Part shown: positions 17,701 through 56,300 of the stretch, piece after piece
Layout of the letters: every line of letters begins with the position of its first letter
How positions within the stretch are numbered: the stretch's first letter is position 1
Assembly (NCBI GenBank): GCA_964016885.1
Contig: OZ024743.1
Coordinates: 90,582,001 to 90,646,000 of the forward strand
From: Eledone cirrhosa
Taxonomy: Eukaryota
Direction: 5' to 3'
Length of the DNA stretch: 64,000 bases
The notes under the pieces: model-generated
Database searches by the model: none
The model's input: the letters and a program-made list of their open reading frames with translations, nothing else
What the model was told of the DNA's origin: nothing
Position numbers and translations under genes: made by a program

Positions 17701-20605
17701 TAAAGAGTAGAGGGATGTGTAGCGGTTGTCTCCCTTGTTTTGATTAGGATCTAGACGGGAAGTGGAACCCTTTCTGCAACTTCCGGTCAGAGCCCTATAA
17801 AACTAACAACTTTAAGCTTCCTTCCTCTCTTTGCCTTTTCGGCACCAGGACGAAGAGCCTCTCATTTGGCTCTGCCATTAATTTGGCCAACAGGCGCCTG
17901 GCCTTAGCCAGGCGCCCTCTGCCAGCCGCATTTGCCTGGCAATCAAAACGGTAACTACTAACTTTGTTTCATTCTAACATCTATCTTTGACATGTCAAGT
18001 ATTCTATCTACCGTTAATTAAATATTATATACACAAACCATGTCTCGTTTTGTTACATTCATACAACCCAGTATCCTCGCTATATTGGTAACCCTGACGT
18101 GATACGAACACGCAGCCGTTCATCGCTATATTGGTAACCCTGACGTGATACGAACACGCAGCCGTTCATCGCTATAAGGGTCACCCCCCAAAAAATAAAA
18201 AAATAGCACATCTGGTTTTGTGAGTAACATTACGAATACACAGCAAATTTAGCGACAAACTATGAAAATACTCAAGGACACGCACACACGCACATGTGGA
18301 ATTCGCACAGACATACTTTTTCTCTCACGCATCAATTAACTGTCGCATTTCACCAATATATATATATATATGTTTCTCGTTTCTTACAACGAACACTTTC
18401 AAAACAAAAAAAAAACATTTCACGATATATATATATATGTTTCTCGTTTCTTACAACGAACTCTTTCAAAACACAAAAAAAAAAGAAATTTGATATTCTT
18501 TAAAAAACATTTCAACAGGAACATTTATTTTCGATGAACCATTGCCTTTTGTTCTTCGTTCTAGTTTTTTGTTTTTTTCCAGAGTTCACACCAATAATTA
18601 TGCTGAGTGAAGCCTTTCTTTTTCATCATTGTCACTTTCAAAATTGCACTATCATTTTCTCGCGCGTTAGAAATATTTTTTTTCAACCTTGTATTGGCAC
18701 GTGTAGGCAGCATAAATTCTCGATTCACTGAGATGTCTCTACTCACAGACAGCCGCACGCCAGAGATAGCATTTCTCCCCCAAGGATTCTTCAGCCTTAA
18801 GCTATATTCTTCTATTTGCCGGTTTATAAATTTACAATGTAAATTTACAGTTGATAACCGCGCATTTATTAGGAATGCTTATTTCTCTGGTCGCTGGCCT
18901 CTTGACCCTTCCAGGTCAACGCATTCTCAACATCGACCATCAACTTCGGCTACTATTTCTAGCACTTTGCGCAACTCATTTTTTCTAAAAAAAAAATTTT
19001 TTACTGTGAATTTAAACACCGAATACGCTCACTCAGCGAGACAACAGCAGCAGCAACAGCAATACATCAATACAGCTTCACCAAAGCCAGAGAATTCATT
19101 TTTGCAGCACTCTTCCTGTGAGAAAATCCATTCGGAGGTTGGAAATTTCACGATATACCACAGAACAGAAACCACCTGCATTCATTCTCTGGAACACACT
19201 TTCTTTCCTGCTGTCATGTGATTGCACACCTGTGAACTATATTTTGAACTTTGAGCTCTTCTATTACTTTTACTTTATTACATTGTATCTTTGGGTGATG
19301 GATAGATGGATGTCCAGTCGTTCTCTGGCCAAGAGCGGTTGGCTACCTTGATATCTATCATTGATTTTTCCAAACATTCTTTTGTCGTAATTTTCATGCC
19401 TGTTACAACATTCTCGCCAACTTGCTACATATTTTCATTTCGATTTTTATACACTAAAATTCTGGCGGGAGGTTATGTAGCGGTTGTCTCCCTTGTTTTG
19501 ATTAGGATCTAGACGGGAAGTGGAACCCTTTCTGCAACTTCCGGTCAGAGCCCTATAAAACTAACAACTTTAAGCTTCCTTCCTCTCTTTGCTTTTTCGG
19601 CACCAGGACGAAGAGCCTCTCATTTGGCTCTGCCATTAATTTGGCCAACAGGCGCCTGGCCTTAGCCAGGCGCCCTCTGCCAGCCGCATTTGCCTGGCAA
19701 TCAAAACGGTAACTACTAACTTTGTTTCATTCTAACATCTATCTTTGACATGTCAAGTATTCTATCTACCGTTAATTAAATATTATATACACAAACCATG
19801 TCTCGTTTTGTTACATTCATACAACCCAGTATCCTCGCTATAGATGCTTCAAATCCATGCAAGCATGGAGTAGCAGATGTAAAACAATGTGGGTCATTTT
19901 AATTGATAACTCACCAAAAGAGTCTTTGAAATAACGTTACTCATTAAAGTGCATAGCCCAGAGATGAGAGAGTCACTACAAGTAGAGCCGCTATTTAGCT
20001 GAATTGAGAGATCTCAGCTACAATACTATGGAATGTCTCGGGAAAGAATCGCTGGACAGATTTTATGGGCAAAACCAACCAGCAGGAGACCCTGGGGTAG
20101 ACCCCGAGCAAGATGGTTGGATAACATCCATGAGCTTGGTTGCTTTTACTTGGGGGGGTCTAGCCGGATCAGTTGGAGACGGTTTTTTCTGACTGAACCT
20201 GCTGGAAGGAGGGTTTTAGGACTCTGCCTTTACGACCCTCCCAAGAAGAAGAAAAAGAAAAAGAAAAAGAAGAAGAAGAAGAACAACAACAACAGCAGCA
20301 GCAGCAGCAGCAGCAGCAACTTACCAAAAGTACATTGATGACTTCAACTGACAAATTGTAACATTTACGCAGCTCATCTCGTTTTTGTTGTGGCAATTCT
20401 GGTATGTGTTTTTTGAGGACATCTATGTTGATAATTTGTGAATGTGCGTCAGAAGGAACAGATAAATTGTCATAGACATAAACAGGAAGTAAATTTGGTT
20501 CTGGCATAAATCGATAATCTTGGAAACTCTCTTTGTCTCTCATTGGTACTGTTTTACTGGAATTATATTATTATATATTTCAAACTTCTGGGGAAAGAAA
20601 TTGTT

Positions 20606-20638
<33 letters not shown>

Positions 20639-23600
20639 AGTAAGAATATTTTTGAAACAGCGAGCGGGTTTGAAATTATTAGAAATGTAAGCTATCGCCG
20701 TATTAAAGAAATTAAAGAAATTATTTAGCCTGATAGTGGGGTTAAGAACCCTCGGAGAAATGGAAAAAGACGAATATTGATGTACATGGGAGTCGAACCC
20801 ACATCTTTGGTTATCCGGACCACTGTGCTACCATTTACACCAACACATCACCCGTCTTTTTCCATTCAAATTAGAAGCTATAAACTTATATATATATATA
20901 TATACAAATTTAAATAAGTTTATGGGTGAAAAAAAGACGTTAAAGCCTAAAGTTTTGTGCATGTGCATAGGGAAAATGAATATGTGTATGATATATGTAG
21001 GGTGTGCATGAATGTAAGTGTGTATGCGTACTGAGGAACGCAGATTTAATTTTTCATCCATTCAAATTAAATCTACCAGCCATCAACTTCTCCAATTGCT
21101 CTCTAAGCCCCTACCCACGGAATCTCTTGATAATGGATGGTAACTCAGAAAATATTTTAGATTAATAAAATTGTTGAGGTCAAATTCTACCATTTTCACT
21201 CTTTTCTCAGTCCTTTTAATAATAATAATAATGAAATTATTGTGTAAAGTGCTCAGGTGCACTACAACTCGTCAAAGGTGTATGTATAGTACATAGAATA
21301 ATACACAAATGTCAAGTGAATAGTGTATGAGTCATGGTATACATGTATGTGTATGGAGGGGGAGCATTAGGTGTAGTGTTGGCGGATCTCAGGAAGCATG
21401 GAGACCATAAAGGATGCAGTGTCTCGACAGCTAACAACTGATGCAGGTAGTTTGTTCCATGCTTCAGCAACTCTGAGCGTGAAAAAATGTTTCCGAAAGT
21501 CATGGGAACTGTGCTGTTTTCTGGCTTTGTGGGCATGCCCACGTGTGTTAGACACATGGAAATCAAAAAGGTACTCAGGGTTGTTGTTGGCAAGATGGTT
21601 AATAATTTTGTGGGTGTTTACCAAGTCAGTTGCCAGGCGTCGGAGCTTCAATGTATCCAGGGAAGCAAGGCGCTCAGAGTATGGTAGATGCCTGATGGAG
21701 GGTATTCGCTTGGTTGCACGTCTCTGAACAGTTTCCAGGTGGTCAATGTTCTGAGCAAGATAGGGGTTCCAGACTGGTGATGCAAATTCTAAGTGTGGCC
21801 GCACCGTAGCCATGTACAGCCTTAAATAGATAGCTGGAGAGCGGCTGACAAAGGTCTTGCTGAGTGATGCTAAGACACCCTCAGCCCTCTTGACAATTTT
21901 AGAGACGTGCTTCGTCCAACGCAAATCGCTGCTGACCGTAATGCCCAGGTCACGTTCACAAGAAGACTTCTTGATATTAGTGTTGTGGACGCTGGGTTTT
22001 TACTCCCAAAATGCATGGTGGTGCACTTGTCCACAGCTAGTATAACTCCTATTACCTTGACACTTTTACTCTTGCACGCATTGTCAGGCTTCCAAATATT
22101 TAAACTTATCTAAATTTGTATTTCTTATTCCACAATGCTTCAAGCAAAATATAACACTTTATTATATATATATATATATATAGATACAAACAAACACACA
22201 TATACTCAGCTTCTACATATGTCCACATATGTACTGTTTATCACATAGTTCAATATAGCACTTATTGCACCCCAATGATCAATAAATGTTTAATATCATA
22301 ACTGAACATTTCACATTATTGTGTTTATTAAAGGCGGTGGATTGGCAGTATCGGTAGAGGGCTTGGCGCCATGCTTTGCAGCAAACAGTTACGTCCCTTG
22401 CCATTCTGAGTTCAATCCCGCCGAGGTTAACTTTGCCTTTCATCCTTACGGAGTCGATAAAATAAAGTACCAGTAATACACTGGGATAATTGCTGGCCTT
22501 GTGCCTAAAGTAGAAACAATTATTATGTTTATATATATATATATATTGTTTCTACTTTTGGCACAAGGCCAGCAATTATTCCAGTGTATTACTGGTACTT
22601 TATTTTATCGAACACGTAAGGATGAAAGGCAAAGTTAACCTCGGCTGGATTTGAACTCAGACCGTAAAGGGGCGTAACTCTTTGCTGCAAAGCATGACAT
22701 CCGACCTACCGATACTGCCAATCTACCGCCCTTATATTATGTTAATATATAATGTGGAGGTGTGTGGCCTAGTGGTAAGGATGTGGGATTTCTGATCATA
22801 ATGTTCTGGGTTCGATTCCTGGACCGGGTTGTATGTTGTATTCTTGAGCAAAACACTTCATTTCACGTTGCTCCAGTGTACTCAACTGAAAATGAGTACC
22901 AACAATAGCTGGGGGTTTAACCCTGTGATGGATGCCGTCCTGTCCTTGGGGGGTCTTGTATTCGCAGTTGCTTCACACCATGGAAACTGTGATAAGCACT
23001 GGCCTGACAAGTCTCCTGGCTTGAGACAAACTTTTGACTAAACATGTTTATTATATTATTTATTACTTGTTTTCTTGGTTTTCCTTTCTTCTTTGGGTCT
23101 CCTATCAGTTGGTTTTGCCTGTAAAATATTTTATTATCAAGATGGTATGTCATACATACCACCTTGATAATGAAATAATAAAAAATGTTCATAAACCCCT
23201 TGATGATCCATCCAAATCATGCAAGTGCCAGAATGGAAAGCAGGCGAAAATAATGATGATGATGATAATCATCATCATCACTGTTTAACGTACATTTTTC
23301 CATGCTGGCATGGGTTAGACAAGTTATCCTGTTGTGAGCAATGCCAGGTCAGGTGACCATGTCATGCTCATACAGAACCGATTTTGGCTTGGTTTCTACA
23401 ACTGGATGCCCTTCCTAGCGCCAACCTCATTTACAATGAGTACTGGGTGCTTTTTGCTGTGTCGCCATCACGACCACTTTACAGTGTGGACTGGGCACTT
23501 TTTGTTGTGTCGCCATCATGACCACAGTGTGGGCTGGGGGCTTCACTGGATGTACTTCAGCTTGTCCTCATGGGAGATGTATGGGAATGGGTGGGGTGGT

Positions 23601-26600: not shown

Positions 26601-29600
26601 ATAAAACTCGTACCTGACATCTTGCCATCACAAGTTCCCAATGTTACTAAAATCAATTGTAGTTCTTTCAAAAACGCAGCGGCTTCCTCTCCATTCTTAA
26701 AATCTGGTTCTGTCACAATTTCCATGAGACCCATTCCTGATAATCCCAAACAAAATAAAAAAATTAATTACAACTGCCCAAAACAACAACATTTCTCATC
26801 ATCATCATCATTGTTTAACATCCATTTTCCACGCTAGCATGAGTTATACAGGTTGTCCTATTAGAGCCAAGTTAGCTCGGGTGACTGTGTCTTGCTGATA
26901 TAGAACTGTATATTACAATATTATTATCACAACTGGTATTTTCATTTAATAAAAATATTTGAGGGATTTATTAAAATTATTAATTATCTCATTAACATAT
27001 GACTCTCATATAAAATTATGCTGAAAGATTTTAATTCAAATAGGAATCCTTTAACCCTTTAGCATTTACATACTCAATATTTACAATTGTATTTTCACAG
27101 TAAAAGCTTTATCTCATATAATATCAAAGCTATGAAATTTTGATATTATTTATTTTGAGAACAATACCTTAACATCAGTATGAGCAGCTAGTTATGACTG
27201 GTTTGAACAGAAAGAGGTGAAATAATTCTGGTCAGATATAGCCGGTTTAAATACTAAAAGGTTAAAAGTTTTTCCTGAGATGGTATCAATAGGGTTAAAC
27301 AACACTAAACGTTATTTCAAAGTGAGATATAATTAATGGTTATGAAACATATAATAAACATATCTGCTATCTTACCTGCTCGATTCAAATCAATTAAACT
27401 AATTTTGTCTGTGTAATCATGCAAGCTCTTTCCACTGTCAACTTCTAGCTGAACTTGTGTGATTCTAGCAACTTTTTCAGTGTAGTCCTTATCTTTAGAG
27501 TAGCCAGGTGCATAATATTTGAGCTTTCCACATTGAGCTAATGGTTTGAAGTACTGTGTGATTTGATATCCAGCCTGGAAGAATAAAAAAAGGAATGGAC
27601 TGAGGAACAGAAGGTCTGACAATCCAACAACACCATCTCACAATAGACTGAAGAGTAGCAAGTCTGAGACCCCAACAGCACCATCTCACAATAGACTGCA
27701 GGGTAGCAAGTCTGACACCCCAACAGCACCATCTCACAATAGACTGCAGGGTAGCAAGTCTGACACCCCAACAGCACCATCTCACAATAGACTGCAGGGT
27801 AGCAAGTCTGATACCCCAACAGCACCATCTCACAATAGACTGCAGAGTAGCAAGTCTGACACTCCAACAACACAATCTCACAATAGACTGCAGGGTAGCA
27901 AGTCTGACACTCCAACAACACCATCTCACAATAGACTGCAGAGTAGCAAGTCTGACACTCCAACAGCACCATCTCACAATAGACTGCAGGGTAGCAAGTC
28001 TGGCACTCCAACAACACAATCTCACAATAGACTTCAGGGTAGCAAATCAGACACCCCAACAGCACCATCTCACAATAGACTGCAGGGTAGCAAGTCTGGC
28101 ATTCCAACAACCACATCTCACAATAGACTGCAGGGTAGCAAGTCTGACACTCCAACAGCACCATCTCACAATAGACTGCAGGGTAGCAAGTCTGGCACTC
28201 CAACAACACAATCTCACAATAGACTTCAGGGTAGCAAGTCAGACACCCCAACAGCACCATCTCACAATAGACTGCAGGGTAGCAAGTCTGACACTCCAAC
28301 AGCACCATCTCACAATAGACTGCAGGGTAGCAAGTCTGACACCCCAACAGCACCATCTCACAATAGACTGCAGGCTAGCAAGTCTGACACTCCAACAGCA
28401 CAATCTCACAATAGACTGCAGAGTAGAAAGTCTGACACTCCAACAACACAATCTCACAATAGACTGCAGGGTAGCAAGTCTGACACTCCAACAACACCAT
28501 CTCACAATAGACTGCAGGGTAGCAAGTCTGACACCCCAACAACACCATCTCACAATAGACTGCAGAGTAGCAAGTCTGGCACTCCAACAGCACCATCTCA
28601 CAATAGACTGCAGGGTAGCAAGTCTGACACTCCAACAACACAATCTCACAATAGACTGCAGAGTAGCAAGTCTGACACCCTCAACAGCACCATCTCACAA
28701 TAGACTGCAGGGTAGCAAGTCTGACACTCCAACAGCACCATCTCACAATAGACTGCAGAGTAGCAAGTCTGACATCCCAACAGCAACATCTCACAATAGA
28801 CTGCAGGGTAGCAAGTCTGGCACTCCAACAACACAATCTCACAATAGACTTCAGGGTAGCAAGTCTGACACTCCAACAACACAATCTCACAATAGACTGC
28901 AGGGTAGCAAGTCTGACACTCCAACAGCACCATCTCACAATAGACTGCAGGGTAGCAAGTCTGACACTCCAACAGCACCATCTCACAATAGACTGCAGGG
29001 TAGCAAGTCTGACACCCCAAAAGCACCATCTCACAATAGACTGCAGGGTAGCAAGTCTGACATACTAACAACATCACACCTCACAACAATTAACCATATC
29101 TTCATACCTCACACCAATAACACACAACCGTCACACCTCACAACAATTACACACAACCAGCACACCTCACAACAATTACACACAACTGTCACACCTCACA
29201 ACAATAACACAACCGTCACACCTCACAACAATAACACACAACCGTCACACCTCACAACAATAACACACAACCATCATACCTCACAACAATGACACACAAC
29301 CGTCACACCTCACAACAATAACACAGAACCATCACATCTCACAACAATGACACACAACCGTCACACCTGACAACAATAACATCAACCGTCACACCTCACA
29401 ACGATAACAAACAACTGTCACACCTCACAACAATAACACAACCGTCACACCTCACAACAATAACACACAACCGTCACACCTCACAACAATAACACACAAC
29501 CGTCACCCCTCACAACAATAACACACAACCATCACACCTCACAACAATGACACGCAACCATCACACCTCACAATAATAACACAAAACCATCATACCTCGC

Positions 29601-32600
29601 AACAATGACACACAACCGTCACACCTCACAACAATGACACACAACCGTCACACTTCACAACAATAACACACAACCATCATACCTCACAAAAATGACACAC
29701 AACCGTCAAACTTCACAACAATAACACACAACCGTCACACCTAACAACAATAACACACAACCATCACACCTCACAACAATGACACAGAACCATCATACCC
29801 CACAACAATGACACACAACCGTCACACATAACAACAATGACACACAACCGTCACACCTCACAACAATGACACACAACCATCACACCTCACAACAATAACA
29901 CAACCGTCACACCTCACACCAATAACACACAACCGTCACATCTAACAACAATAACACACAACCATCATACCTCAGAACAATAAAACACAACCATCATACC
30001 TCAGAACAATGACACACAACCATCACACCTCACAACAATAACACAACCGTCACACCTCACACCAATAACACACAACCATCATACCTCACAACAATGACAC
30101 AACCGTCACACCTCATAACAATAACACACAACCATCACACCTCAGACCAATAACACACAACCATCGCACCTCACAACAATGACACACAACCATCACACCT
30201 CACAACAATAATACACAACCGTCACACCTCACACCAATAACACAGAACCATCACATCTCACAACAATGAAACACAACCATCACATCTCACAACAATAACA
30301 CACAACTATCACACATGACAACAATAACACAACCGTCACACCTCACTACAATAACACAACTATCATACCTCACAACAATGACACACGGCCGTCACACCTC
30401 ACAACAATGACACACAACCGTCACACCTCACAATAACACACAACCGTCACACCTCAGAATAACACACAACCATCACACCTCACAACAATAACACAACCAT
30501 CATACCTCACAACCGTCACACCTCGCAACAATAACACACAACCATCACACCTCACAACAAGAACACACAACCATCATACCTCACAACAATGACACACAAC
30601 CGTCACACCTCACAACAATTACACACAACCTTCACACCTCACAACAATAACACACAACCATCATACCTCACAACAATGACACACAACCATCACACCTCAC
30701 AACAATAACACACAACCATCACACCTCACAACAATGACACACAACCGTCACACTTCACAAAAATAACACAACCGTCAGACCTCACAACAATAACCCACAA
30801 CCGTCACACATCACAACAATAACACACAACCATCACACCTCACAAAAATGACACACAACCGTCACACTTCACAACAATAACACACAACCATCATACCTCG
30901 CAACAATGACACACAACCGTCACACCTCACAACAATGACACACAACCGTTACACCTAACAACAATAACACAGAACCATCATACCCCACAACAATGACACA
31001 CAACCGTCACACATAACAACAATGACACACAACCGTCATACCTCACAACAATGACACACAAGCATCACACCTCACAACAATAACACAACCGTCACACCTC
31101 ACAACAATAACACACAACCGTCACATCTAACAACAATAACACACAACCATCATACCTCAGAACAATAACACACAACCATCATACCTCAGAACAATGACAC
31201 ACAACCATCACACCTCACAACAATAACACAACCGTCACACCTCACACCAATAACACACAACCATCATACCTCACAACAATGACACAACCATCAGACCTCA
31301 CAACAATAACACAACCGTCACACCTCATAACAATAACACACAACCGTAACACCTTACAACAATAACACACAACCATCACACCTCAGACCAATAACACACA
31401 ACCATCACACCTCACAACAATGACACACAACCATCACACCTCACACCAATAACACACTACCATCACACCTCACAACAATAATACACAACCGTCACACCTC
31501 ACACCAATAACACACAACCATCACACCTCACAACAATGAAATACAACCATCACATCTCACAACAATAACACACCTATCACACCTGACAACAATAAGACAA
31601 CCGTCACACCTCTCAACAATAACACAACTATAATACCTCACAATAACACCTCACAACAATAACACACAACCATCATACCTCACAACAATGACACACAACC
31701 GTCACACCTCACAACAATAACACACAACCATCAAACCTCACAACAATGACACACAGCCATCACACTTCACAAAAATAACACAACCGTCAGACCTCACAAC
31801 AATAACCCATAACCGTCACACCTCAAAACAATAACACTCAACCATCATACCTCACAACAATAACACACAACTGTCACACTTCACAACAATAACCCACAAC
31901 CATCACACCTCACAACAATGACACACAACCGTCACACCTCACAACAATAACACACAACTGTCACACTTCACAACAATAACACACAACCGTCACACCTCAC
32001 AACAATAACACACAACTGTCACACTTCACAACAATAACACACAACCGTCACACCTAACAACAATAACACACAACCATCATACCTCGCAACAATGACACAC
32101 AACCATCACACCTCACAACGACACACAACCGTCACACTTCACAACAATAACCCACAACGATCACACCTCACAACAATGACACACAACCGTCACACTTCAC
32201 AAAAATAACACAACCGTCAGACCTCACAACAATAACCCACAACCGTCACACATCACAACAATAACACACAACCATCACACCTCACAACAATAACACACAA
32301 CCGTAACACCTTACAACAATAACACAACCATCATACCTCACAACAATAACACAACTGTCACACTTCACAACAATAACCCACAACCATCACACCTCACAAC
32401 AATGACACACAACCATCACACCTCACAACAATGAGACACAACCGTCACACCTCATAACAATAACACACAACCGTCACACCTCACAACAATAACACACAAC
32501 TGTCACACCTCACAACAATGACACGCAACCATCACACCTCACAACAATAACACACACCTGTCACACCTCACAACAATGACACACAACCGTCACACCTCAC

Positions 32601-35600
32601 AACAATAACACACACCTGTCACACCTCACAACGATCCATATCCTCACACCTCAGAACGACACACAACCGTCACACCTCACAATGACACACAACCGTCACA
32701 CCTCACAACAATGACACACAACCGTCACACTTCACAACAATAACACACAACCATCATACCTCACAACAATGACACACAACCGTCCCACCTCACAACAATG
32801 ACACACAACCATCACACCTCACAACAATAACACACAACCATCATACCTCACAACAATGCCACACAACCGTCACACCTCACAACAATGACACACAACCATC
32901 ACACCTCACAACAATAACACAACCATCATACCTCACAACAATGACACACAACCGTCCCACCTCACAACAATGACACACAACCATCACACCTCACAACAAT
33001 GACACACAACCATCACACCTCACAACAATAACACACAACCATCATACCTCACAACAATGACACACAACCGTCCCACCTCACAACAATAACACACAACCGT
33101 CACACCTCACAACAATGACACACAACCGTCACACCTCACAACAATGACACACAACCGTCACACCTCACAACAATGACACACAACCGTCACACCTCACAAC
33201 AATGACACACAACCATCACACCTCACAACAATGACACACAACCATCACACCTCACAACAATGACACACAACCGTCACACCTCACAACAATGACACACAAC
33301 CGTCACACCTCACAACAATGACACACAACCGTCCCACCTCACAACAATGACACACAACCGTCCCACCTCACAACAATGACACACAACCATCACACCTCAC
33401 AACAATGACACACAACCGTCACACCTCACAACAATGACACACAACCGTCACACCTCACAACAAAGACACACAACTGTCACACCTCAATGTAAGAATTGAT
33501 GAGGTCAGATCTAAAGACAACAGTTCACACTTCCCAAATGAAATGACACAACTCATGGCAGCATAAAAAAACAAAACATCATAATGATGATGATGATGAT
33601 AGAGCTGCTGCTGATGATGATGAAGATGGCCAAAGCTATTGTTTTTTACAGTGTGATTCTGTTTCAAAGTAGAGTTATTTGTCTTGTCCAAGAGTACAAA
33701 ACAAAGGTTATACCCGTAAGGTTTGAACCCATGGCTGTGTGTATGTTGGTCTTCTGTCAGTTCTGATGGGGAGTGTTCCATTTGTTTGACCAATGGAACA
33801 ATCTGCTCATGAAATTTTTGTGTAAGTGGTGGAGCATCCTACAGACACATATACCTTTAAGTAATTCTCAAGGGAGATTCAGCATGATTCTGTGTGACAA
33901 GATGACTCTTTAACCCTCTACCATTTACATTACTCTATATATACTATTGTATTTTCACAGTAAAGGCTTTATCTCACATAATATTGAATCTACGAGATTT
34001 TGATATTATTTATTTTGAGAACAATGCCTTAACATAAGAATGAGTAGGCAGTTATGGCTGGTTTTAACAGAGGGAGGTGAGAGAATTCTGGTTAGAAACG
34101 ATTGGTTTAAATGCTAAAGGATTAAATCACAAGCACAATCATTTTTTTCCAGCTGAGTAGACTGAAGGGAGCAACATGAAATAAAGTGTCTTGTTCAAGG
34201 ACACAACATTACCACTGAGAATTGAACTTATGACCTTACAATTATGAACAAAAAACACCCTAACCACTATGCCATACACCTTCACATCCATTACTATGAG
34301 ATCAACAGTGTAGCTCCTTAGTTTTACCCAGTAATTGTACATTATAATATTTTTTTGAAATTTGTTCCACTCTGTAAATGTGGTTGGTGTTAGGAAGGAC
34401 ATCCAGCTGTAAAAATCCCAGCTAAATTTACAGTCCTGTCAGAGCAAGGTACAGTGTGGCCAATTCTGGCCAGACTTGTCTCTTGACATGGATGACCCGT
34501 CTAACCCATGCAAGCATGGAAAATGGATGTTAAATGATGATGATGATGATGTTCATACTTACAGGCAAGTCAGCATAAAAATAATGTTTCCTATCAAACA
34601 TTGATATCCTGTTGATATGACAACTGAGAGCTAGACTTGTGAGTACACCAGCTTTCAAACATTTTTGATTTAATACCTAAAATTAATGAAGGTTTAGAAA
34701 TAACATTGTAACTATATCAGATATATCTGAAAAAGAGGAATTATTATAGGAAGATTGTAAAGAAGTATTAATGTCAATGTTTCTTAATAAATCACAAGGG
34801 TTAGATTTCTTTAGGTAACACACATGGTTGGGTTGTCAATGACTAAACTGGCAACCCCACCAAGTTTTCTTGGTGAGGAGGGTGATTTTAGACACCCTAC
34901 AGGGTGAAAAACAAAATCTGACAAAAGGCAGAGGAACTCATGAGAGTCAACGGCCACCCAATAGTGTGTATATATGTATATATTGTTTGGATGTGGAAAT
35001 ATGTATATGTTAGTTCAAGAGTGTGCAGAGATGTAGTAGTTTTCACTGGTTGGTACTGGATGGTCTTCTGTGGTATCCCTGTGTGTCCCAGTGTCTGTTC
35101 AACATGCCACTCAGTGAACTGATGACACACAATATATGCTCATTTAAGCTGAGTACTTAACTCAGTTTGAAGACCGACCTGCATGGTAAAAAGCCACATC
35201 CTACATGAAGGGCCTCTGATATGGCCATCATAGGAGAGTCTAGAGAACAGGTTAGATATAGACGAGTAAGCCTAAATAAAAATCCTGCTTGTCTCATAGT
35301 AAGCTCATGTAGTTCTCAGTTTAATTAGATGACCTTGGCGTTGTGAACACCAGTTGCTTTGCAGATGATCAGCTATTAATTCAACAATGGATTGGCACAA
35401 CTGCTTCAGTTAGTGGAAAAATCTATTAGTATGCAGGTGTGGCGAGCCACATATATTCTAGCCATTAGATAAAGAAAAATGAATGCTTCACCTTTGATTG
35501 AGGAATGACTCGAGAAAGTGAGAGGAACACACTCTGTGCTGCCTCCTGAAATTTTTTCCTTAATTATAAACCCCCAATAAACCTGATCCAACCTACCTAC

Positions 35601-38600
35601 CACCTTAATGCACACAGTGAATATTGATTTCAAAAGATAAAATTGTATGTAACTTAATATATCAATTTTAGGGTGGTGGACTGGTAGAATTAGTAGAGTG
35701 TCAGTTAAAATGCTGTTACAGTATTTGTTCTGGTTCTTTATATTCTGAGTTCAAATCCTGCTGAGGTAGGTATTTTTACACCAGGATGCCCTTCCTATCA
35801 CATATCATCATTCACTTTACAGTGTACTGAGTGTATTTATCAAGTAGATCACAAACACTAGTGCAACATCCAAAATATAAAACTAATACAAATTTCAAAG
35901 AAAACTTACAGGTAATGTTCCAGGAAGTGCTGCATCAAAATAAGATACTTGTGTATTAGGGGCTGCACCATATGTAGTGGAAGAACCTGAAAACATTTTA
36001 CTTTCTGAGAGGATCTGAGCATGAATTTCTAATCCAATAACACCATACCATTCATTGTTGTCTCTGAAAAAAGAAAATGAATTTAGGTATTATTATATAG
36101 TGTTGGTGGCATGATAAAATATATCCAGTACACCCTGTAAAGTGGTAGTGGTGGTGGTGGTGCCATGATAAAACTTATGCAACCAAAGTAATATAATGTG
36201 AACATTCATTACAACTCACATCAACAATAGGTACCATGTCATGTCACAAATACACATTGACTACAGACACCATGTCACCTCACAACTACACACCAACAAC
36301 AGACACCAAGTAATCTCACGACTACACACTGTCTACAGATACCACGCCACCACAACTACACACCAATAACAGACACCAAGTAATCTCACAACTACACACT
36401 GTTTACAGACACCACGCCACCACAACTACACACCAATAACAGACACCAAGTAATCTCACAACTACACACTGTCTACAGACACCATGTCACCTCACAACTA
36501 TACACTGGCTATAGATACCACGTAACCTCACAACTACATGCTGATTACAGACATCATGGCACCTCACAACTACACACCAGCTAAAGGTACCAGGTAGAGA
36601 AGCTATCCAACGACAGGCAAAAACAAGTATCTCATTAAACAATTTACCATTTCTGCCTCTATTTTATTTGTAGTAAGGAATGTCATTAAAGTAATATCAC
36701 ATAAAATTCCTTGTTCTTCTTTAAATCCCGGGATTAAAGTAGCCTTCTGGACAGAGCAATCTGAGGTTGAGCAAATTTATTATATTTTGATATCATGGCC
36801 CACCGATGAGACACTGCATAGCTATGTGGCCCACTGACAAGACACTGCATAGCTATGTGACCTGCTGACAAGACACTGCATAGCTATGTGGCCCATTGAC
36901 AAGACACTGCATAGCTATGTGACCTGCTGACAAGACACTGCATAGCTATGTGGTCAACTGACAAGACACTGCATAGCTATGTGGCCCACTGACAAGACAC
37001 TACATAGCTATGTGACCCACTGACAAGACACTGCATAGCTATGTGACCCACTGACAAGACACTGCATAGCTATGTGGCCTGCTGACAAGACACTGCATAA
37101 CTATGTGACCTGCTGACAAGACACTGCATAGCTATGTGGTCCACTGACAAGACACTGCATAGCTATGTGGCCCACTGACAAGACACTACATAGCTATGTG
37201 ACCCACTGACAAGACACTGCATAGGTATGTGACCCACTGACAAGACACTACGTAGCTATGTGGCCCACTGACAAGACACTACGTAGCTATGTGGCCCACT
37301 GACAAGACACTGCATAGCTATGTGACCCACTGACAAGACACTGCATAGCTATGTGACCCACTGACAAGACACTGCATAGCTATGTGACCTGCTGACAAGA
37401 CACTGCATAGCTATGTGGCCCACTGACAAGACACTGCATAGCTATGTGGCCTGCAGACAAGACACTGCATAGCTATGTGGCCTGCTGACAAGACACTGCA
37501 TAGCTATGTGGCCCACTGACAAGACACTGCATAGCTATGTGACCCACTGACAAGACACTGCATAGCTATGTGACCTGCTGACAAGACACTGCATAGCTAT
37601 GTGACCCGCTGACAAGACACTGCATAGCTATGTGGCCCACTGACAAGACACTGCATAGCTATGTGACCCACTGAAAAGACACTGCATAGCTATGTGACCT
37701 GCTGACAAGACACTGCATAGCTATGTGGCCCACTGACAAGACACTGCATAGCTATGTGGCCCACTGACAAGACACTGCATAGCTATGTGGCCTGCTGACA
37801 AGACACTGCATAGCTATGTGGCTCACTGACAAGACACTGCATAGCTATGTGGCCTGCTGACAAGACACTGCATAGCTATGTGACCCGCTGACAAGACACT
37901 GCATAGCTATGTGGCCCACTGACAAGACACTGCATAGCTATGTGACCCACTGAAAAGACACTGCATAGCTATGTGACCTGCTGACAAGACACTGCATAGC
38001 TATGTGGCCCACTGACAAGACACTGCATAGCTATGTGGCCTGCTGACAAGACACTGCATAGCTATGTGGTCCACTGACAAGACACTATATAGCTATGTGG
38101 CCCACTGACAAGACACTGCATAGCTATGTGACCCACCGACAAGACACTGCATAGCTATGTGACCCACTGACAAGACACTGCATAGCTATGTGTGACCTGC
38201 TGACAAGACAATGCAAAGCTATGTGACCTGCTGACAAGGCACTGCATAGCTATGTGACCCACTGACAAGACACTGCATAGCAATGTGACCCACTGACAAG
38301 ACACTATATAGCAATGTGGCCCACTGACAAGACACTGCATAGCTATGTGACCGACTGACAAGACACTGCATAGCTATGTGGCCTGCTGACAAGACACTGC
38401 ATAGCTATGTGACCTGCTGACAAGACACTGCATAGCTATGTGACCTGCTGACAAGACACTGCATAGCTATGTGACCTGCTGACAAGACACTGCATAGCTA
38501 TGTGGCCTGCTGACAAGACACTGCATAGCAATGTGACCCACTGACAAGATACTGCATAGCTATGTGGCCCACTGTCAAGACACTGCATAGCTATGTGACC

Positions 38601-41600
38601 GACTGACAAGACACTGCATAGCTATGTGACCGACTGACAAGACACTGCATAGCTATGTGGCCTGCTGCCTAGACACTGCATAGCTATGTGACCTGCTGAC
38701 AATACATTGCATAACTATGTGGTCCACTGACAAGACACTGCATAGCTATGTGGCCTGCTGACAAGACACTGCATAGCTATGTGACCCACTGACAAGACAC
38801 TGCATAGCTATGTGACCCACTGACAAGACACTGCATAGCTATGTGGCCCACTGACAAGACACTGCATAGCTATGTGGCCCACTGACAAGACACTGCATAG
38901 CTATGTGACCGACTGACAAGACACTGCATAGCTATGTGACCGACTGACAAGACACTGCATAGCTATGTGGCCTGCTGACAAGACACTGCATAGCTATGTG
39001 ACCTGCTGACAAGACATTGCATAACTATGTGGTCCACTGACAAGACACTGCATAGCTATGTGGCCTGCTGACAAGACACTGCATAGCTATGTGACCCACT
39101 GACAAGACACTGCATAGCTATGTGACCTGCTGACAAGACATTGCATAGCTATGTGGCCCACTGACAAGACACTGCATAGCTATGTGACCGACTGACAAGA
39201 CACTGCATAGCTATGTGGCCTGCTGACAAGACACTGCATAGCTATGTGACCTGCTGACAAGACACTGCATAGCTATGTGACCTGCTGACAAGACACTGCA
39301 TAGCTATGTGACCTGCTGACAAGACACTGCATAGCTATGTGGCCCACTGACAAGACACTGCATAGCTATGTGGCCTGCTGACAAGACAGTGCATAGCAAT
39401 GTGGTCCACTGACAAGACACTGCATAGCTATGTGGCCTGCTGACAAGACACTGCATAGCTATGTGACCCACTGATAAGACACTGCATAGCTTTGTGACCT
39501 GCTGACAAGACATTGCATAGCTTTGTGACCCACTGACAAGACACTACATAGGTATGTGACCTGCTGACAAGACACTGCATAGCTATGTGACCTGCTGACA
39601 AGACACTGCATAGCTATGTGACCCACTGACAAGACACTGCATAGCTATGTGACCTGCTGACAAGACATTGCATAGCTATGTGACCCACTGACAAGACACT
39701 GCATAGGTATGTGACCCACTGACAAGACACTGCATAGCTATGTGGCCTGCTGACAAGACACTATAGCTATGTGACCCACTGACAAGACACTGCATAGCTA
39801 TGTGACCTGCTGACAAGACACTGCATAGCTATGTGACCCACTGAAAAGACACTACATAGCTATGTGGCCCACTGACAAGACACTGTATAGCTATGTGGCC
39901 CACTGACAAGACACTACATAGCTGTGTGGCCCACTGACAAGACACTGCATAGCTATGTGACCCACTGACAAGACACTACATAGCTATGTGGCCTGCTGAC
40001 AAGACACTCCATAGCTATGTGGCCCACTGACAAGATACTCCATAGCTATGTGGCCTGCTGACAAGACACTGCATAGCTATGTGGCCTGCTGACAAGACAC
40101 TGCATAGCTATGTGACCGACTGACAAGACACTGCATAGCTATGTGACCCACTGACAAGACACTGCATAGCTATGTGGCCTGCTGACAAGACACTGCATAG
40201 CTATGTGGCTCACTGACAAGACACTGCATAACTATGTGGTCCACTGACAAGACACTGCATAGCTATGTGACCCACTGACAAGACACTACATAGCTATGTG
40301 GCCCACTGACAAGACACTGCATAGCTATGTGGCCTGCTGACAAGACACTGCATAACTATGTGACCCACTGACAAGACACTGCATAGCTATGTGACCCACT
40401 GACAAGACACTACATAGCTATGTGACCCACTGACAAGACACTGCATAGCTATGTGGCCCACTGACAAGACACTGCATAGCTATGTGACCCACTGACAAGA
40501 CACTGCATAGCTATGTGGCCCACTGACAAGACACTGCATAGCTATGTGGCCTACTGACAAGACACTGCATAGGAATGTGGCCTGCTGACAAGACACTGCA
40601 TAACTATGTGACCCACTGACAAGACACTGCATAGCTATGTGACCCACTGACAAGACACTGCATAGCTATGTGACCCACTGACAAGACACTACATAGCTAT
40701 GTGACCCACTGACAAGACACTGCATAGCTATGTGACCCACTGACAAGACACTACATAGCTATGTGGCCCACTGACAAGACACTGCATAGCTATGTGGCCT
40801 ACTGACAAGACACTGCATAGGAATGTGGCCCAGGACAAGACACTGCATAGGTATGTGACCCACTGACAAGACACTGCATAGCTATGTGGCCACCAACAAG
40901 ACACTGCATAGCTACGTGACCTGTTGACAAGACACTGCATAGCTATGTGGCCTGCTGACAAGACACTGCATAACTATGTAACCCACTGACAAGACACTGC
41001 ATAGCTATGTGACCCACTGACAAGACACTACATAGTTATGTGACCCACTGACAAGACACTGCATAGCTATGTGGCCCACTGACAAGACACTGCATAGCTA
41101 TGTGACCCACTGACAAGACACTGCATAGCTATGTGACCTGCTGACAAGACACTGCATAACTATGTGACCTGCTGACAATACATTGCATAGCTGTGTGGCC
41201 CACTGACAAGACACTGCATAGCTATGTGGCCTGCTGACAAGACACTGCATAACTATGTGACCCACTGACAAGACACTGCATAGCTATGTGACCCACTGAC
41301 AAGACACTGCATAGCTATGTGGCCTGCTGACAAGACACTGCATAGCTATGTGGCCCACTGACAAGACACTGCATAACTATGTGGTCCACTGACAAGACAC
41401 TGCATAGCTATGTGATCCACTGACAAGACACTACATAGCTATGTGACCCACTGACAAGACACTGCATAGCTATGTGACCCACTGACAAGACACTACATAG
41501 CTATGTGGCCCACTGACAAGACACTGCATAGCTATGTGGCCTACTGACAAGACACTGCATAGGAATGTGGCCCAGGACAAGACACTGCATAGGTATGTGA

Positions 41601-44600
41601 CCCACTGACAAGACACTGCATAGCTATGTGGCCACCAACAAGACACTGCATAGCTATGTGGCCTGTTGACAAGACACTGCATAGCTATGTGGCCTGCTGA
41701 CAAGACACTGCATAGCAATGTGGCCCACTGACAAGACACTGCATAGCTATGTGGCCCACTGACAAGACACTACATAGCTATGTGACCTGCTGACAAGACA
41801 CTGCATAGCTATGTGACCCACCGACAAGACACTGCATAGCAATGTGACCCACTGACAAGACACTGCATAGCTATGTGACCCACTGACAAGACACTGCATA
41901 GCTATGTGACCCACTGACAAGACACTGCATAGCTATGTGGCCCACTGACAAGACACTGCATAGCTATGTGACCGGCTGACAAGACACTGCATAGCTATGT
42001 GACCGACTGACAAGACACTGCATAGCTATGTGACCTGCTGACAAGACATTGCATAACTATGTGGTCCACTGACAAGACACTGCATAGCTATGTGGCCTGC
42101 TGACAAGACACTGCATAGCTATGTGACCCACTGATAAGACACTGCATAGCTTTGTGACCTGCTGACAAGACATTGCATAGCTTTGTGACCCACTGACAAG
42201 ACACTACATAGGTATGTGACCTGCTGACAAGACACTGCATAGCTATGTGACCTGCTGACAAGACACTGCATAGCTATGTGACCCACTGACAAGACACTGC
42301 ATAGCTATGTGACCTGCTGACAAGACATTGCATAGCTATGTGACCCACTGACAAGACACTGCATAGGTATGTGACCCACTGACAAGACACTGCATAGCTA
42401 TGTGGCCTGCTGACAAGACACTATAGCTATGTGACCCACTGACAAGACACTGCATAGCTATGTGACCTGCTGACAAGACACTGCATAGCTATGTGACCCA
42501 CTGAAAAGACACTACATAGCTATGTGGCCCACTGACAAGACACTGTATAGCTATGTGGCCCACTGACAAGACACTACATAGCTGTGTGGCCCACTGACAA
42601 GACACTGCATAGCTATGTGACCCACTGACAAGACACTACATAGCTATGTGGCCTGCTGACAAGACACTCCATAGCTATGTGGCCCACTGACAAGACACTC
42701 CATAGCTATGTGGCCTGCTGACAAGACACTGCATAGCTATGTGGCCTGCTGACAAGACACTGCATAGCTATGTGACCGACTGACAAGACACTGCATAGCT
42801 ATGTGACCCACTGACAAGACACTGCATAGCTATGTGGCCTGCTGACAAGACACTGCATAGCTATGTGGCCCACTGACAAGACACTGCATAACTATGTGGT
42901 CCACTGACAAGACACTGCATAGCTATGTGACCCACTGACAAGACACTACATAGCTATGTGGCCCACTGACAAGACACTGCATAGCTATGTGACCCACTGA
43001 CAAGACACTGCATAGCTATGTGGCCTGCTGACAAGACACTGCATAACTATGTGACCTGGTGACAATACATTGCATAGCTATGTGGCCCACTGACAAGACA
43101 CTGCATAGCTATGTGGCCTGCTGACAAGACACTGCATAACTATGTGACCCACTGACAAGACACTGCATAGCTATGTGACCCACTGACAAGACACTACATA
43201 GCTATGTGACCCACTGACAAGACACTGCATAGCTATGTGGCCCACTGACAAGACACTGCATAGCTATGTGACCCACTGACAAGACACTGCATAGCTATGT
43301 GGCCTGCTGACAAGACACTGCATAACTATGTGACCTGGTGACAATACATTGCATAGCTATGTGGCCCACTGACAAGACACTGCATAGCTATGTGGCCTGC
43401 TGACAAGACACTGCATAACTATGTGACCCACTGACAAGACACTGCATAGCTATGTGACCCACTGACAAGACACTGCATAGCTATGTGACCCACTGACAAG
43501 ACACTACATAGCTATGTGGCCCACTGACAAGACACTGCATAGCTATGTGGCCTACTGACAAGACACTGCATAGGAATGTGGCCCAGGACAAGACACTGCA
43601 TAGGTATGTGACCCACTGACAAGACACTGCATAGCTATGTGGCCACCAACAAGACACTGCATAGCTACGTGGCCTGTTGACAAGACACTGCATAGCTATG
43701 TGGCCTGCTGACAAGACACTGCATAACTATGTAACCCACTGACAAGACACTGCATAGCTATGTGACCCACTGACAAGACACTACATAGTTATGTGACCCA
43801 CTGACAAGACACTGCATAGCTATGTGGCCCACTGACAAGACACTGCATAGCTATGTGACCCACTGACAAGACACTGCATAGCTATGTGGCCTGCTGACAA
43901 GACACTGCATAATTATGTGACCTGCTGACAAGACACTGCATAGCTATGTGGCCCACTGACAAGACACTGCATAGCTATGTGACCGGCTGACAAGACACTG
44001 CATAGCTATGTGACCCACTGACAAGACACTACATAGCTATGTGGCCTGTTGACAAGACACTGCATAGCTATGTGGCCCACTGACAAGACACTGCATAGCT
44101 ATGTGACCTGCTGACAAGACACTGTATAGCAATGTGACCCGCACACCCCAAAAGGTTGCCAACTCCTGACGTAGAGGCTCCCTAAACTGAGTGATCAGAG
44201 CCGGATTTAATGGGAGATAATTGCCCTGGGTCCCTCACAGCTGGGGGGCACCAGCAACAGCCATAGCAATTTATTTGTGTCCTCTGTTAGGCTTTTTAGT
44301 TTATCCCTTTCACAACGAGCATGTAAAGACCTCTTTAGTACTAGTGCCACAATAAAATGCACTCAGTACATCCAGTAAATTGCTAGTGTTGGTGCCTCGA
44401 TAGAAGATACCTAGTCCACTGTGTAAAGTGGTTGTGTTGGTATCACAAAAACAATACACCCAATAAACACTCCAAAGTGGTTATGTGAGGAAGAGCATCC
44501 AGCCATAGAAACTATGCCAAATATGTAATGTATGAGCAAGATGAGGTCACTCCAATATATCTGGTCACAGACTGTGACAACCTGTCCAACACATGCCAGT

Positions 44601-53300: not shown

Positions 53301-56300
53301 GGTCAACAGTGGGAGTAGCTCTCTAAACTTCTTCCATCCTATCCTTATTCTAGCTTTTATGCTGTTAGAACACTCTCCTCCATTGTTAATTACATCGCCC
53401 AGATAGCAGAAGCTATCAACCACTACAAAGTTTTAATATTAGCTTACCTGATGGCACTTTTTTTAGTAGCTTTATTTCCAACACCAGACATATTTTGAGG
53501 CAGTATAACCTCATTATGAGGACCATCAAATTCACCTTCACTTTCTGACAGGTTTCCACCACTAGAAATATACATTATAAATGTTTGAATATTTAAAAGA
53601 CATTTAAACTTCTATTTATTTATTGTTAAACTTAGTGTAACAAGGTGGCAGATTAACAGTTGATCAACAGATGTGGTGACAGATGAACAGTCCAAAGTTT
53701 ATATTGCAATTTAATAATGACAAAAAAAAACCAAAACAATAAAGTAAACCAAATAAAGAGGAATACGAATCTGTGATACACACCTATATTACAGTTGTGT
53801 CATTACATACAAACCTATATTACAGTTGTGTCATTACATACAGACCTATATTACAGTTCTGTCATTACATACAGACCTATATTACAGTTGTCATTACATA
53901 CACCTATATTACAGTTGTGTCATTACATACACCTATATTACAGTTGTGTCATTACATACACCTATATTACAGTTGTTATTACATACAGACCTATATTACA
54001 GTTGTGTCATTACATACAGACCTATATTACAGTTGTGTCATTACATACACCTATATTACAGTTATGTCATTACATACAGACCTATATTACAGCTCTGTCA
54101 TTACATACAGACCTATATTACAGTTGTGTCATTACATACACCTATATTACAGTTGTGTCATTACATACAGACCTATATTACAGTTCTGTCATTACATACA
54201 GACCTATATTACAGTTGTGTCATTACATTCAGACCTATATTACAGTTGTGTCATTACATACACCTATATTACAGTTGTGTCATTACATACTCCTATATTA
54301 CAGTTGTGTCATTACATACACCTATATTACAGTTGTGTCATTACATACACCTATATTACAGTTGTGTTATTACAGACAGACCTATATTACAGTTGTGTCA
54401 TTACATACAAACCTATATTACAGTTGTGTCATTACATACACACCTATATTACAGTTGTGTCATTACATTCAGACCTATATTACAGTTGTGTCATTACATA
54501 CAGACCTATATTACAGTTGTGTCATTACATACAAACCTATATTACAGTTGTGTCATTACACACACCTATATTACAGCTGTCATTACATACAGACCTATAT
54601 TACAGTTGTGTCATTACATACACCTATATTACAGTTATGTCACTACATACACCTATATTACAGTTGTGTCATTACATACAGACCTATATTACAGTTGTGT
54701 CATTACATACAGACCTATATTACAGTTGTGTCATTACATACAGACCTATATTACAGTTGTGTCATTACATACAGACCTATATTACAGTTGTGTCATTACA
54801 TACAAACCTATATTACAGTTGTGTCATTACATACACCTATATTACAGTTATGTCATTACATACACCTATATTACAGTTGTGTCATTACATACACCTATAT
54901 TACAGTTGTGTCATTACATACACCTATATTACAGTTATGTCATTACATACACCTATATTACAGTTATGTCATTACATACACCTATATTACAGTTGTGTCA
55001 TTACATACACCTATATTACAGTTGTGTCATTACATACAGACCTATATTACAGTTGTGTCATTACATACACCTATATTACAGTTGTGTCATTACATACAGA
55101 CCTATATTACAGTTCTGTCATTACATACAGACCTATATTACAGTTGTGTCATTACATACACCTATATTACAGTTATGTCATTACATACAGACCTATATTA
55201 CAGTTGTGTATTACATACAGACCTATATTACAGTTCTGTCATTACATACAGACCTATATTACAGCTCTGTCATTACATACAGACCTATATTACAGTTGTG
55301 TCATTACATACAGACCTATATTACAGTTGTGTCATTACATACACCTATATTACAGTTATGTCATTACATACAGACCTATATTACAGCTCTGTCATTACAT
55401 ACAGACCTATATTACAGTTGTGTCATTACATACACCTATATTACAGTTGTGTCATTACATACAGACCTATATTACAGTTCTGTCATTACATACAGACCTA
55501 TATTACAGTTGTGTCATTACATTCAGACCTATATTACAGTTGTGTCATTACATACACCTATATTACAGTTGTGTCATTACATACTCCTATATTACAGTTG
55601 TGTCATTACATACACCTATATTACAGTTGTGTCATTACATACACCTATATTACAGTTGTGTTATTACAGACAGACCTATATTACAGTTGTGTCATTACAT
55701 ACAAACCTATATTACAGTTGTGTCATTACATACACACCTATATTACAGTTGTGTCATTACATTCAGACCTATATTACAGTTGTGTCATTACATACAGACC
55801 TATATTACAGTTGTATCATTACATACAAACCTATATTACAGTTGTGTCATTACACACACCTATATTACAGCTGTCATTACATACAGACCTATATTACAGT
55901 TGTGTCATTACATACACCTATATTACAGTTATGTCACTACATACACCTATATTACAGTTGTGTCATTACATACAGACCTATATTACAGTTGTGTCATTAC
56001 ATACAGACCTATATTACAGTTGTGTCATTACATACAGACCTATATTACAGTTGTGTCATTACATACAGACCTATATTACAGTTGTGTCATTACATACAAA
56101 CCTATATTACAGTTGTGTCATTACATACACCTATATTACAGTTATGTCATTACATACACCTATATTACAGTTGTGTCATTACATACACCTATATTACAGT
56201 TGTGTCATTACATACACCTATATTACAGTTATGTCATTACATACACCTATATTACAGTTATGTCATTACATACACCTATATTACAGTTGTGTCATTACAT

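What the first reader, a model, noticed from the sequence alone, without database searches (positions are those of the whole stretch)
18077..18185. Duplicated, over-long tRNA-Trp primer-binding site with a mismatch at the m1A58 position: possible fossil of RT reading through its primer
Seen: a 46-bp unit (TCGCTATA-T-TGGTAACCCTGACGTGATACGAACACGCAGCC-GTTCA) occurs twice, followed by a third TCGCTATA, which is a copy of the LTR end. Knowledge: a PBS is normally up to 18 nt because plus-strand synthesis stops at m1A58 of the primer tRNA, and RTs that bypass m1A often misincorporate. From my recall of vertebrate tRNA-Trp (..GGCTGCGTGTTCGAATCACGTCGGGGTCACCA), complementarity here continues for 32 nt (18086-18117) through the whole T arm, and base 19 (18104, opposite A58) is A instead of T. 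Downstream AGGGTCACC (18177-18185) is complementary to the PBS with the ancestral G and could fold back on it. Inference: the element captured extra tRNA sequence by read-through and now carries two extended primer sites plus an anti-PBS. This could help a non-coding parasite compete for primer or RT, or it could be a conformational switch.
Basis: partly seen in the sequence, partly recalled or inferred. Interest (0 to 1): 0.72.

Follow-up and report, generated by a model that had tools for sequence, protein, structure and literature searches.

The report
Retrotransposon with stacked, over-copied primer sites
About 500 copies of a gene-less jumping element carry a 32-base backwards copy of their primer tRNA followed by a second end signal, likely a frozen copying slip; this copy holds that block twice, an accident that recurs in scattered copies without spreading, and the spare end signal sometimes serves as the element's real inserted end.

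Summary
A 2.1-kb non-coding LTR element (17718-19842) has two identical 46-bp units. Host tRNA-Trp genes have A58 and match for 32 nt, with A at base 19.

The long site is family-wide (97 of 100 sampled anchors). Doubling is rare (3 of 100) and arose separately in all 12 multi-unit copies on the tree, so an advantage from two sites is not supported. The 'anti-PBS' is a decayed older primer site behind a copied LTR end; it folds back because the motif is near-palindromic.

Long tRNA-Trp sites recur: about 31 separate events (22-49 nt) in related families, 27 with the correct T at base 19. So m1A misincorporation is plausible but not shown.

Added here: seven insertions (five full, two solo LTRs) end at the downstream LTR-end copy with a matching target duplication, so the block can be absorbed into the LTR.

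The scan noted this family and similar over-copies before, in this and other genomes. Short primer over-extension is known in lentiviruses.

The parts
17714..17717 (+). Target-site duplication GATG (left)
   Evidence: repeated at 19843-19846
17718..18084 (+). 5' LTR, 367 bp, TGT...ATA ends
   Evidence: 99.7% identical to the 3' LTR (1 difference)
18086..18117 (+). Unit 1: 32-nt complement of mature tRNA-Trp (positions 76-45), mismatches at bases 5, 10 and 19 (18104)
18118..18130 (+). Five-base linker plus copy of the LTR end (second end signal)
   Evidence: the real inserted end in L311-L315, L442, L446
18132..18163 (+). Unit 2: identical 32-nt tRNA-Trp complement (base 19 at 18150)
   Evidence: minority, recurrent duplication
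18164..18176 (+). Linker plus third copy of the LTR end
18177..18188 (+). Decayed older primer site behind its spacer (the 'anti-PBS')
   Evidence: 7 of 100 sampled copies keep a tRNA-perfect 11-mer here; 74 have one substitution; 10 also lack one base, as here; 9 other
18189..19463 (+). Non-coding internal region
   Evidence: the one 204-aa open frame has no Pfam match; related at 77% to a sister family with a plain 18-nt PBS (L327)
19464..19475 (+). Polypurine tract and spacer
19476..19842 (+). 3' LTR, normal length (not extended in this copy)
19843..19846 (+). Target-site duplication GATG (right)

Best explanation
This is a non-coding LTR retrotransposon, likely mobilised by CsRn1-type Gypsy elements, whose founder likely gained a 32-nt primer site when plus-strand synthesis ran past tRNA position 58 and then likely realigned onto the LTR end, leaving LTR end, long site, copied LTR end, old site. 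The family inherits this block. In later cycles the tRNA corrects only the first bases and only sometimes; base 19 was never seen restored. Template slips between the repeated LTR-end words double the block now and then, as here. Priming or realignment downstream of the block occasionally makes the copied LTR end the integrated end, so the LTR grows by 46 bp. Shown: anatomy, tRNA match, counts, independent origins, inserted ends with target duplications. Inferred: read-through and realignment as the cause, base 19 as an m1A misreading, the helper, and the route to doubling and to extended LTRs.
For: tRNA match including CCA. One unit in 94 of 100 sampled anchors, two in 3, none in 3 (one of these an inverted fragment). 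The two zero-unit copies show LTR end plus a perfect 11-nt site, and a sister family has a plain 18-nt site. About 31 separate over-copies of 22-49 nt, some joined to integrase sequence (L362) or to inverted LTR (L048, L057, L348), one rejoined to its own LTR end (L052). Match to the tRNA falls with distance: base 5 in 24 of 97, base 10 in 15 of 97, base 19 in 0 of 97. Tree: 12 changes for 12 multi-unit copies, one clade rejected with p-AU 1e-26. Extended ends with target duplications in L311-L315, L442 and L446. The last 25 nt of U5 differ between paired LTRs at 5.8% against 0.74% elsewhere (32 elements), and 3 of those 32 have aberrant right ends, so this junction is slip-prone.
Against: Base 19 is T in 27 of 31 events. 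Among events of 34 nt or more it is T in 12, G in 1 and A in 0, so the A may be an ordinary founder mutation (excess over other sites only p=0.022, with sampling bias). The origin of the five-base linker is unresolved. Zero-unit copies could be deletions rather than ancestors; the tree is midpoint-rooted only. In L313 and L446 the 5' and 3' units differ in their first bases, which simple downstream priming does not predict. No helper with a matching LTR was found. PMC8599865 and PMC13191261 state that long over-extension products cannot complete integration in HIV.
Confidence: 0.75

Rival explanations
1. The long site, its two mismatches and the enclosing hairpin are selected: the hairpin and mismatches shield the PBS from 3' tRNA fragments, while the 14 extra bases restore tRNA binding or catch over-extended plus strands.
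For: The two-mismatch form dominates (72 of 97) although no tRNA gene with both changes was seen among those fetched, and perfect forms are scattered (11 changes for 18 rows). This is the pattern described for mouse ETn/MusD (PMC7472051, section 4.3). Predicted duplex -56 kcal/mol for 32 nt against -28 for 18 nt. Hairpin predicted in 84 of 94 copies. Bases 20-32 vary little (0.3%).
Against: 12 of 62 other windows are as conserved. Folding z-score -1.0. The hairpin is predicted for the presumed ancestral state too. Ty1/Ty3-like non-inheritance of the primer sequence (PMC5371799, section 2.2) explains persistence without selection. Only 40 of 154 tRNA-gene candidates were scored.
Confidence: 0.2
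2. Two long primer sites give the parasite an edge in competing for primer or RT.
For: 2 of 9 multi-unit copies with a readable right end have an extended 3' LTR, against 0 of 32 unselected copies with the unit at the right end. The second site therefore seems usable.
Against: Doubling is 3 of 100. All 12 cases are separate tips, no more clustered than shuffled labels (12 against 11.6).
Confidence: 0.05
3. The tRNA piece came from insertion of a tRNA-derived SINE or pseudogene fragment, with the LTR-end repeat as its target duplication (as proposed for Culex cqgypsy_1).
For: An LTR-end repeat flanks the piece, as in PMC3286476 section 13.
Against: The piece is antisense, starts exactly at the CCA at the PBS position and is the primer's own tRNA. 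About 31 events with different endpoints share this polarity.
Confidence: 0.04

Closest known systems
CsRn1 clade of Ty3/Gypsy elements (PwRn1, AgCR; PMC2582038, passages and section 6 read)
   Same: tRNA-Trp PBS, 4-bp target duplication, TGT...ATA ends, PPT. Coding relatives in this genome have the CX2HX9CX3C Gag motif (L137, L144).
   Different: This element has no gag or pol. Its PBS is 32 nt, with stacked LTR-end/PBS junctions not mentioned in the parts read.
Primer over-extension sequence of lentiviruses and spumaviruses (PMC13191261 section 10; PMC8599865 Discussion)
   Same: Genome complementary to the primer beyond 18 nt, past m1A58.
   Different: There it stops near position 54/55 (about 22 nt) and longer products are called dead ends. 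Here 22-49-nt copies are integrated and several founded families.
Mouse ETn/MusD two-mismatch PBS (PMC7472051, section 4.3)
   Same: The commonest PBS has two mismatches, with perfect ones scattered over the tree; ETn is also non-autonomous (recalled).
   Different: No extension or stacking in the section read; different primer and superfamily.
Culex cqgypsy_1 (PMC3286476, section 13)
   Same: Long CCA-bearing tRNA sequence at the PBS, flanked by a direct repeat of the LTR end.
   Different: Two whole tRNAs head to head, Osvaldo lineage, read by the authors as a Twin SINE-like insertion.
Helenus TRIMs (PMC10886601, parts 1-3 of 6)
   Same: Non-autonomous LTR elements carrying tRNA-derived sequence, 4-bp TSD in animals.
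   Different: Helenus keeps A and B promoter boxes inside the LTR, unrelated to its PBS, and is mostly under 1 kb. Here only an antisense 3' piece of the primer itself is present.

Membership tests
Non-autonomous LTR retrotransposon | Paired LTRs, PBS, PPT, target-site duplication | tested here: met
Non-autonomous LTR retrotransposon | No gag/pol coding | tested here: met
   the only frame of 120 aa or more inside the element has no Pfam match
CsRn1 clade | tRNA-Trp PBS | tested here: met
   criterion from PMC2582038
CsRn1 clade | 4-bp TSD and TGT...ATA/AAA ends | tested here: met
CsRn1 clade | CHCC Gag motif | tested here: not met
   The element has no Gag. The motif is seen only in coding relatives L137 and L144, so the element is filed as a likely passenger, not a member.
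CsRn1 clade | RT phylogeny with named CsRn1 elements | not tested
   one search returned flatworm and other relatives at 52-58% without clade names; no tree built
CsRn1 clade | LTR similarity to an identified helper | tested here: inconclusive
   L137 and L144 match only at the PBS
TRIM / Helenus | Under about 1 kb; tRNA A and B boxes within the LTR | tested here: not met
   2,125 bp; no tRNA call in the LTRs
Primer over-extension sequence | Complement to the primer beyond base 18 | tested here: met
Primer over-extension sequence | Serves as acceptor for over-extended plus strands | not testable with these tools
   base 19 not restored in any copy inspected, which weighs against frequent use
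m1A58 RT signature | Host tRNA-Trp is methylated at A58 and its RT misreads it | not testable with these tools
   indirect only: 4 of 31 events against 7 of 253 other sites

The most novel reading that the evidence does not exclude
In tRNA-Trp-primed Gypsy elements, over-copied primers are not dead ends but drive a ratchet: read-through and realignment create a second LTR-end/PBS junction, use of that junction moves tRNA-derived sequence into the LTR, and the LTR end grows step by step. The integrated over-copies also form a readable record of where the host tRNA is modified and how this RT passes those sites.
Probability: 0.45. Interest if true: 0.62.

Novelty: new variant of a known kind. 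Interest (0 to 1): 0.45.

Why it matters
Retroviral work holds that plus strands copied well past m1A58 cannot integrate. This genome holds dozens that did, and one became a family of about 500 copies. It offers natural readouts for open questions: how often Gypsy elements inherit their primer's sequence, how RT treats m1A58 in vivo, and how LTR ends gain new sequence. It also warns that LTR boundaries and LTR-pair dating are unreliable at the U5 tip. The doubling in this window is itself a minor accident.

Tried and rejected
Rfam and ARAGORN saw no tRNA at the site, only an unrelated tRNA-like gene at 20777-20850. The Rfam family search of the genome returned no tRNA-Trp among 16 matches; pattern and DNA searches found them instead.

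Ongoing read-through in the family was rejected: G at base 19 in 3 of 97 against 6 of 679 at other A sites, p=0.09, and no T. A second tRNA-Trp with both PBS changes was not found among the genes fetched; one gene has the base-10 change alone. Exceptional conservation of the extension was not shown. No helper with a matching LTR was found among the 32 longer stretches screened against the element.

Sequencing runs: no RNA holder listed. Laid contigs and RAD reads did not span the doubled junction. The metagenome scan gave 4 hits: 2 look like bacterial tRNA genes and were dropped, 2 are LTR-like over-copies of 30 and 37 nt with T19.

One search dropped the window copy and L004 through a duplicate filter; one search restored them and left out 4 long or odd rows (L158, L179, L183, L253). 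In one search, 41 clusters became 31: 8 extra clusters of this family were collapsed and 2 metagenome rows removed.

Ten literature searches listed no paper on long or stacked PBSs in CsRn1 elements. The library lacks most subscription journals. The Lauermann and Boeke papers were not held and were seen only through reviews. Double primer sites in mdg1/412 and micropia are recalled, not confirmed. No supplements were read; those of PMC2582038 (LTR/PBS alignments) and PMC7472051 may bear on novelty.

Full report
1. Observation. The window lies in a 3.0-Gb genome. The finding sits in a 2,125-bp element at 17718-19842. It has two 367-bp LTRs that differ at one base, TGT...ATA ends, a GATG target duplication and a polypurine tract. 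The only open frame of 120 aa or more inside it has no Pfam match. The 46-bp unit occurs 2.2 times with 100% identity.

2. tRNA match. Host tRNA-Trp(CCA) genes were found by pattern and DNA search and have A58. The complement of one gene plus CCA matches 32 nt of each unit, with mismatches at bases 5, 10 and 19. PBS length is given as generally 8-18 nt (10.1101/2023.10.26.564294, passage).

3. Family census. An anchor outside the PBS has 543 exact matches, and the unit has 471. I read the first 100 anchors, all on contig C1: 94 have one unit, 3 have two and 3 have none (two true zero-unit copies, one inverted fragment). In 97 first units base 19 is A in 94, G in 3, T in 0. Genome-wide, all 37 sites with the 22-nt core and a base other than A were read: 5 are family copies with G, none has T or C, and the rest are tRNA genes or other families. 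Bases 5 and 10 are A,T in 72, tRNA-perfect in 14, G,T in 10 and A,C in 1. Perfect forms need 11 changes for 18 rows on the tree, which fits repeated correction from the primer. So in later cycles the RT normally copies at most 18 nt, and the extension is inherited. Always inserting A at base 19 cannot be excluded.

4. The 'anti-PBS'. Behind the copied LTR end, 7 of 100 copies have a tRNA-perfect 11-nt PBS, 74 have one substitution, 10 also lack one base (this window's state) and 9 are other. L012 has a full long site there. The two zero-unit copies have only LTR end plus this 11-mer, and sister family L327 has a plain 18-nt PBS. It is therefore best read as the older primer site. Pairing with the upstream PBS is predicted at mean probability 0.84-0.98 in all three states. 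In the window it pairs with unit 2 (about 0.9) and not unit 1 (0.05). The region folds no better than shuffles (z -1.0).

5. The doubling. Twelve multi-unit copies (one with four units) need 12 changes on a 98-row tree built without the PBS region; shuffled labels give 11.6 and one clade is rejected (p-AU 1e-26). Nine of the 12 came from searches that favoured them. The window copy's nearest relative is a one-unit copy at 99% identity. Doubling is recurrent and did not spread.

6. The second end signal works. One search found 14 units followed by a base other than A. Seven continue into another unit, two are spacer variants, and five are followed by host DNA. Three of the five are full elements whose 3' LTR carries the unit and then the same target duplication as the 5' flank (GACT, GATG, GGTT); two are solo LTRs plus unit with matching flanks (GTTC, GTAC). 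Two more were found among multi-unit copies (L442, L446), making 2 of 9 with a readable right end, against 0 of 32 unselected elements. The count is a lower bound because duplications starting with A were excluded. Priming downstream of the unit is the simplest route. Differences between the 5' and 3' units in L313 and L446 point to two templates or plus-strand realignment in some cases.

7. Long sites are common here. The 18-nt site has 882 exact matches and 582 extend to 24 nt, most of them this family. Clustering 188 extended sites gave 41 clusters. After collapsing this family and removing two metagenome rows, 31 separate events of 22-49 nt remain: T at base 19 in 27, A in 2, G in 2. One A case extends only to 22 nt and may be chance. 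Non-T at base 19 is 4 of 31 against 7 of 253 other sites (p=0.022), but searches favoured non-A cases and the table was hand-assembled. For events of 34 nt or more the complete counts are 12 T, 1 G, 0 A. dATP misincorporation opposite m1A is documented, most clearly when U follows (PMC4787781, passages); here A follows. Two metagenome contigs show similar over-copies.

8. Helper. Coding relatives with the same PBS have RT, RNase H and integrase domains and the CX2HX9CX3C Gag motif. With the tRNA-Trp PBS, 4-bp TSD and TGT...ATA ends, this defines CsRn1-like elements (PMC2582038). None shares LTR sequence with this family, so the helper is inferred.

9. Mechanism. Inferred founding step: plus-strand synthesis passed A58, copied to position 45, and realigned on the last 8-13 nt of U5. 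The junction is demonstrably slip-prone. Persistence of the two-mismatch PBS fits partial non-inheritance of the primer as in Ty1/Ty3 (PMC5371799 section 2.2), against the 50:50 retroviral rule (PMC4549124, first part). It also fits selection against tRNA fragments as argued for ETn/MusD (PMC7472051 section 4.3). I could not separate these.

10. Known and new. Over-extension to about 22 nt is known in lentiviruses, and longer products are described as unable to integrate (PMC8599865 Discussion; PMC13191261 section 10). cqgypsy_1 is a structural precedent read differently (PMC3286476). Helenus differs (PMC10886601). Drosophila Gypsy has two distant primer sites (PMC1635307, abstract only). Ten searches listed no account of long or stacked PBSs in CsRn1 elements; coverage is limited. 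The scan's own unchecked notes already describe this family, the U5 tip variation and similar over-copies; I read them after my counts respectively.

11. Verdict. A real feature and a new variant of known retroelement biology. The doubling is ordinary noise. The inherited over-copy and the use of the spare LTR end are the points of interest. Interest 0.45.

Noticed in passing
window 18060-18084 and family LTR ends: The last 25 nt of U5 are hypervariable: 36 distinct 20-mers in 51 young copies, and 5.8% against 0.74% difference between paired LTRs. Also noted earlier by the scan.
   Followed up: yes
L394, L383, L377 (3' LTR ends): Aberrant right ends before the target duplication: 9 nt of tRNA-perfect PBS plus a re-copied U5 end, an 11-nt end duplication, and a PBS-like tail.
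   Followed up: partly
L137:1008-1060 (also L316; 39 exact matches of the junction start): A coding CsRn1-like family also has PBS, short extension with A at base 19, a second LTR-end word and a decayed second PBS.
   Followed up: partly
L098 and L052, U5 region: The LTR of another family holds decayed tRNA-complement and PBS remnants upstream of its present end, as expected from past LTR growth.
   Followed up: no
L264 cluster (29 loci) and L067 cluster (3 loci): Gag-bearing families with inherited 29-nt and 40-nt tRNA-Trp sites and T at base 19.
   Followed up: partly
L319, L048, L057, L348: tRNA copies joined to inverted LTR sequence (fold-back joints).
   Followed up: no
L317 (G000:C1:71732500-71734500): A miniature derivative in which the unit joins straight to the PPT, in tandem with a full copy.
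   Followed up: no
G000:C4:353394853-353483044 and C4:277407611-277441479: Tandem tRNA-Trp gene arrays; many copies in the first have A instead of G at position 57.
   Followed up: no
window 18346-18482: A 67-70-bp internal direct repeat around AT microsatellites, 91% alike.
   Followed up: no
window 20777-20850 (-): tRNA-like gene called Ser(GGA) by ARAGORN, Rfam 45 bits; possibly a SINE head.
   Followed up: no
window about 36660-44000: A 31-bp satellite of over 220 copies.
   Followed up: no
window about 28000-33300 and 53700-59400: Strand-skewed repeat tracts; the second gives open frames over 1,300 codons in all three + frames, typical of simple repeats.
   Followed up: no
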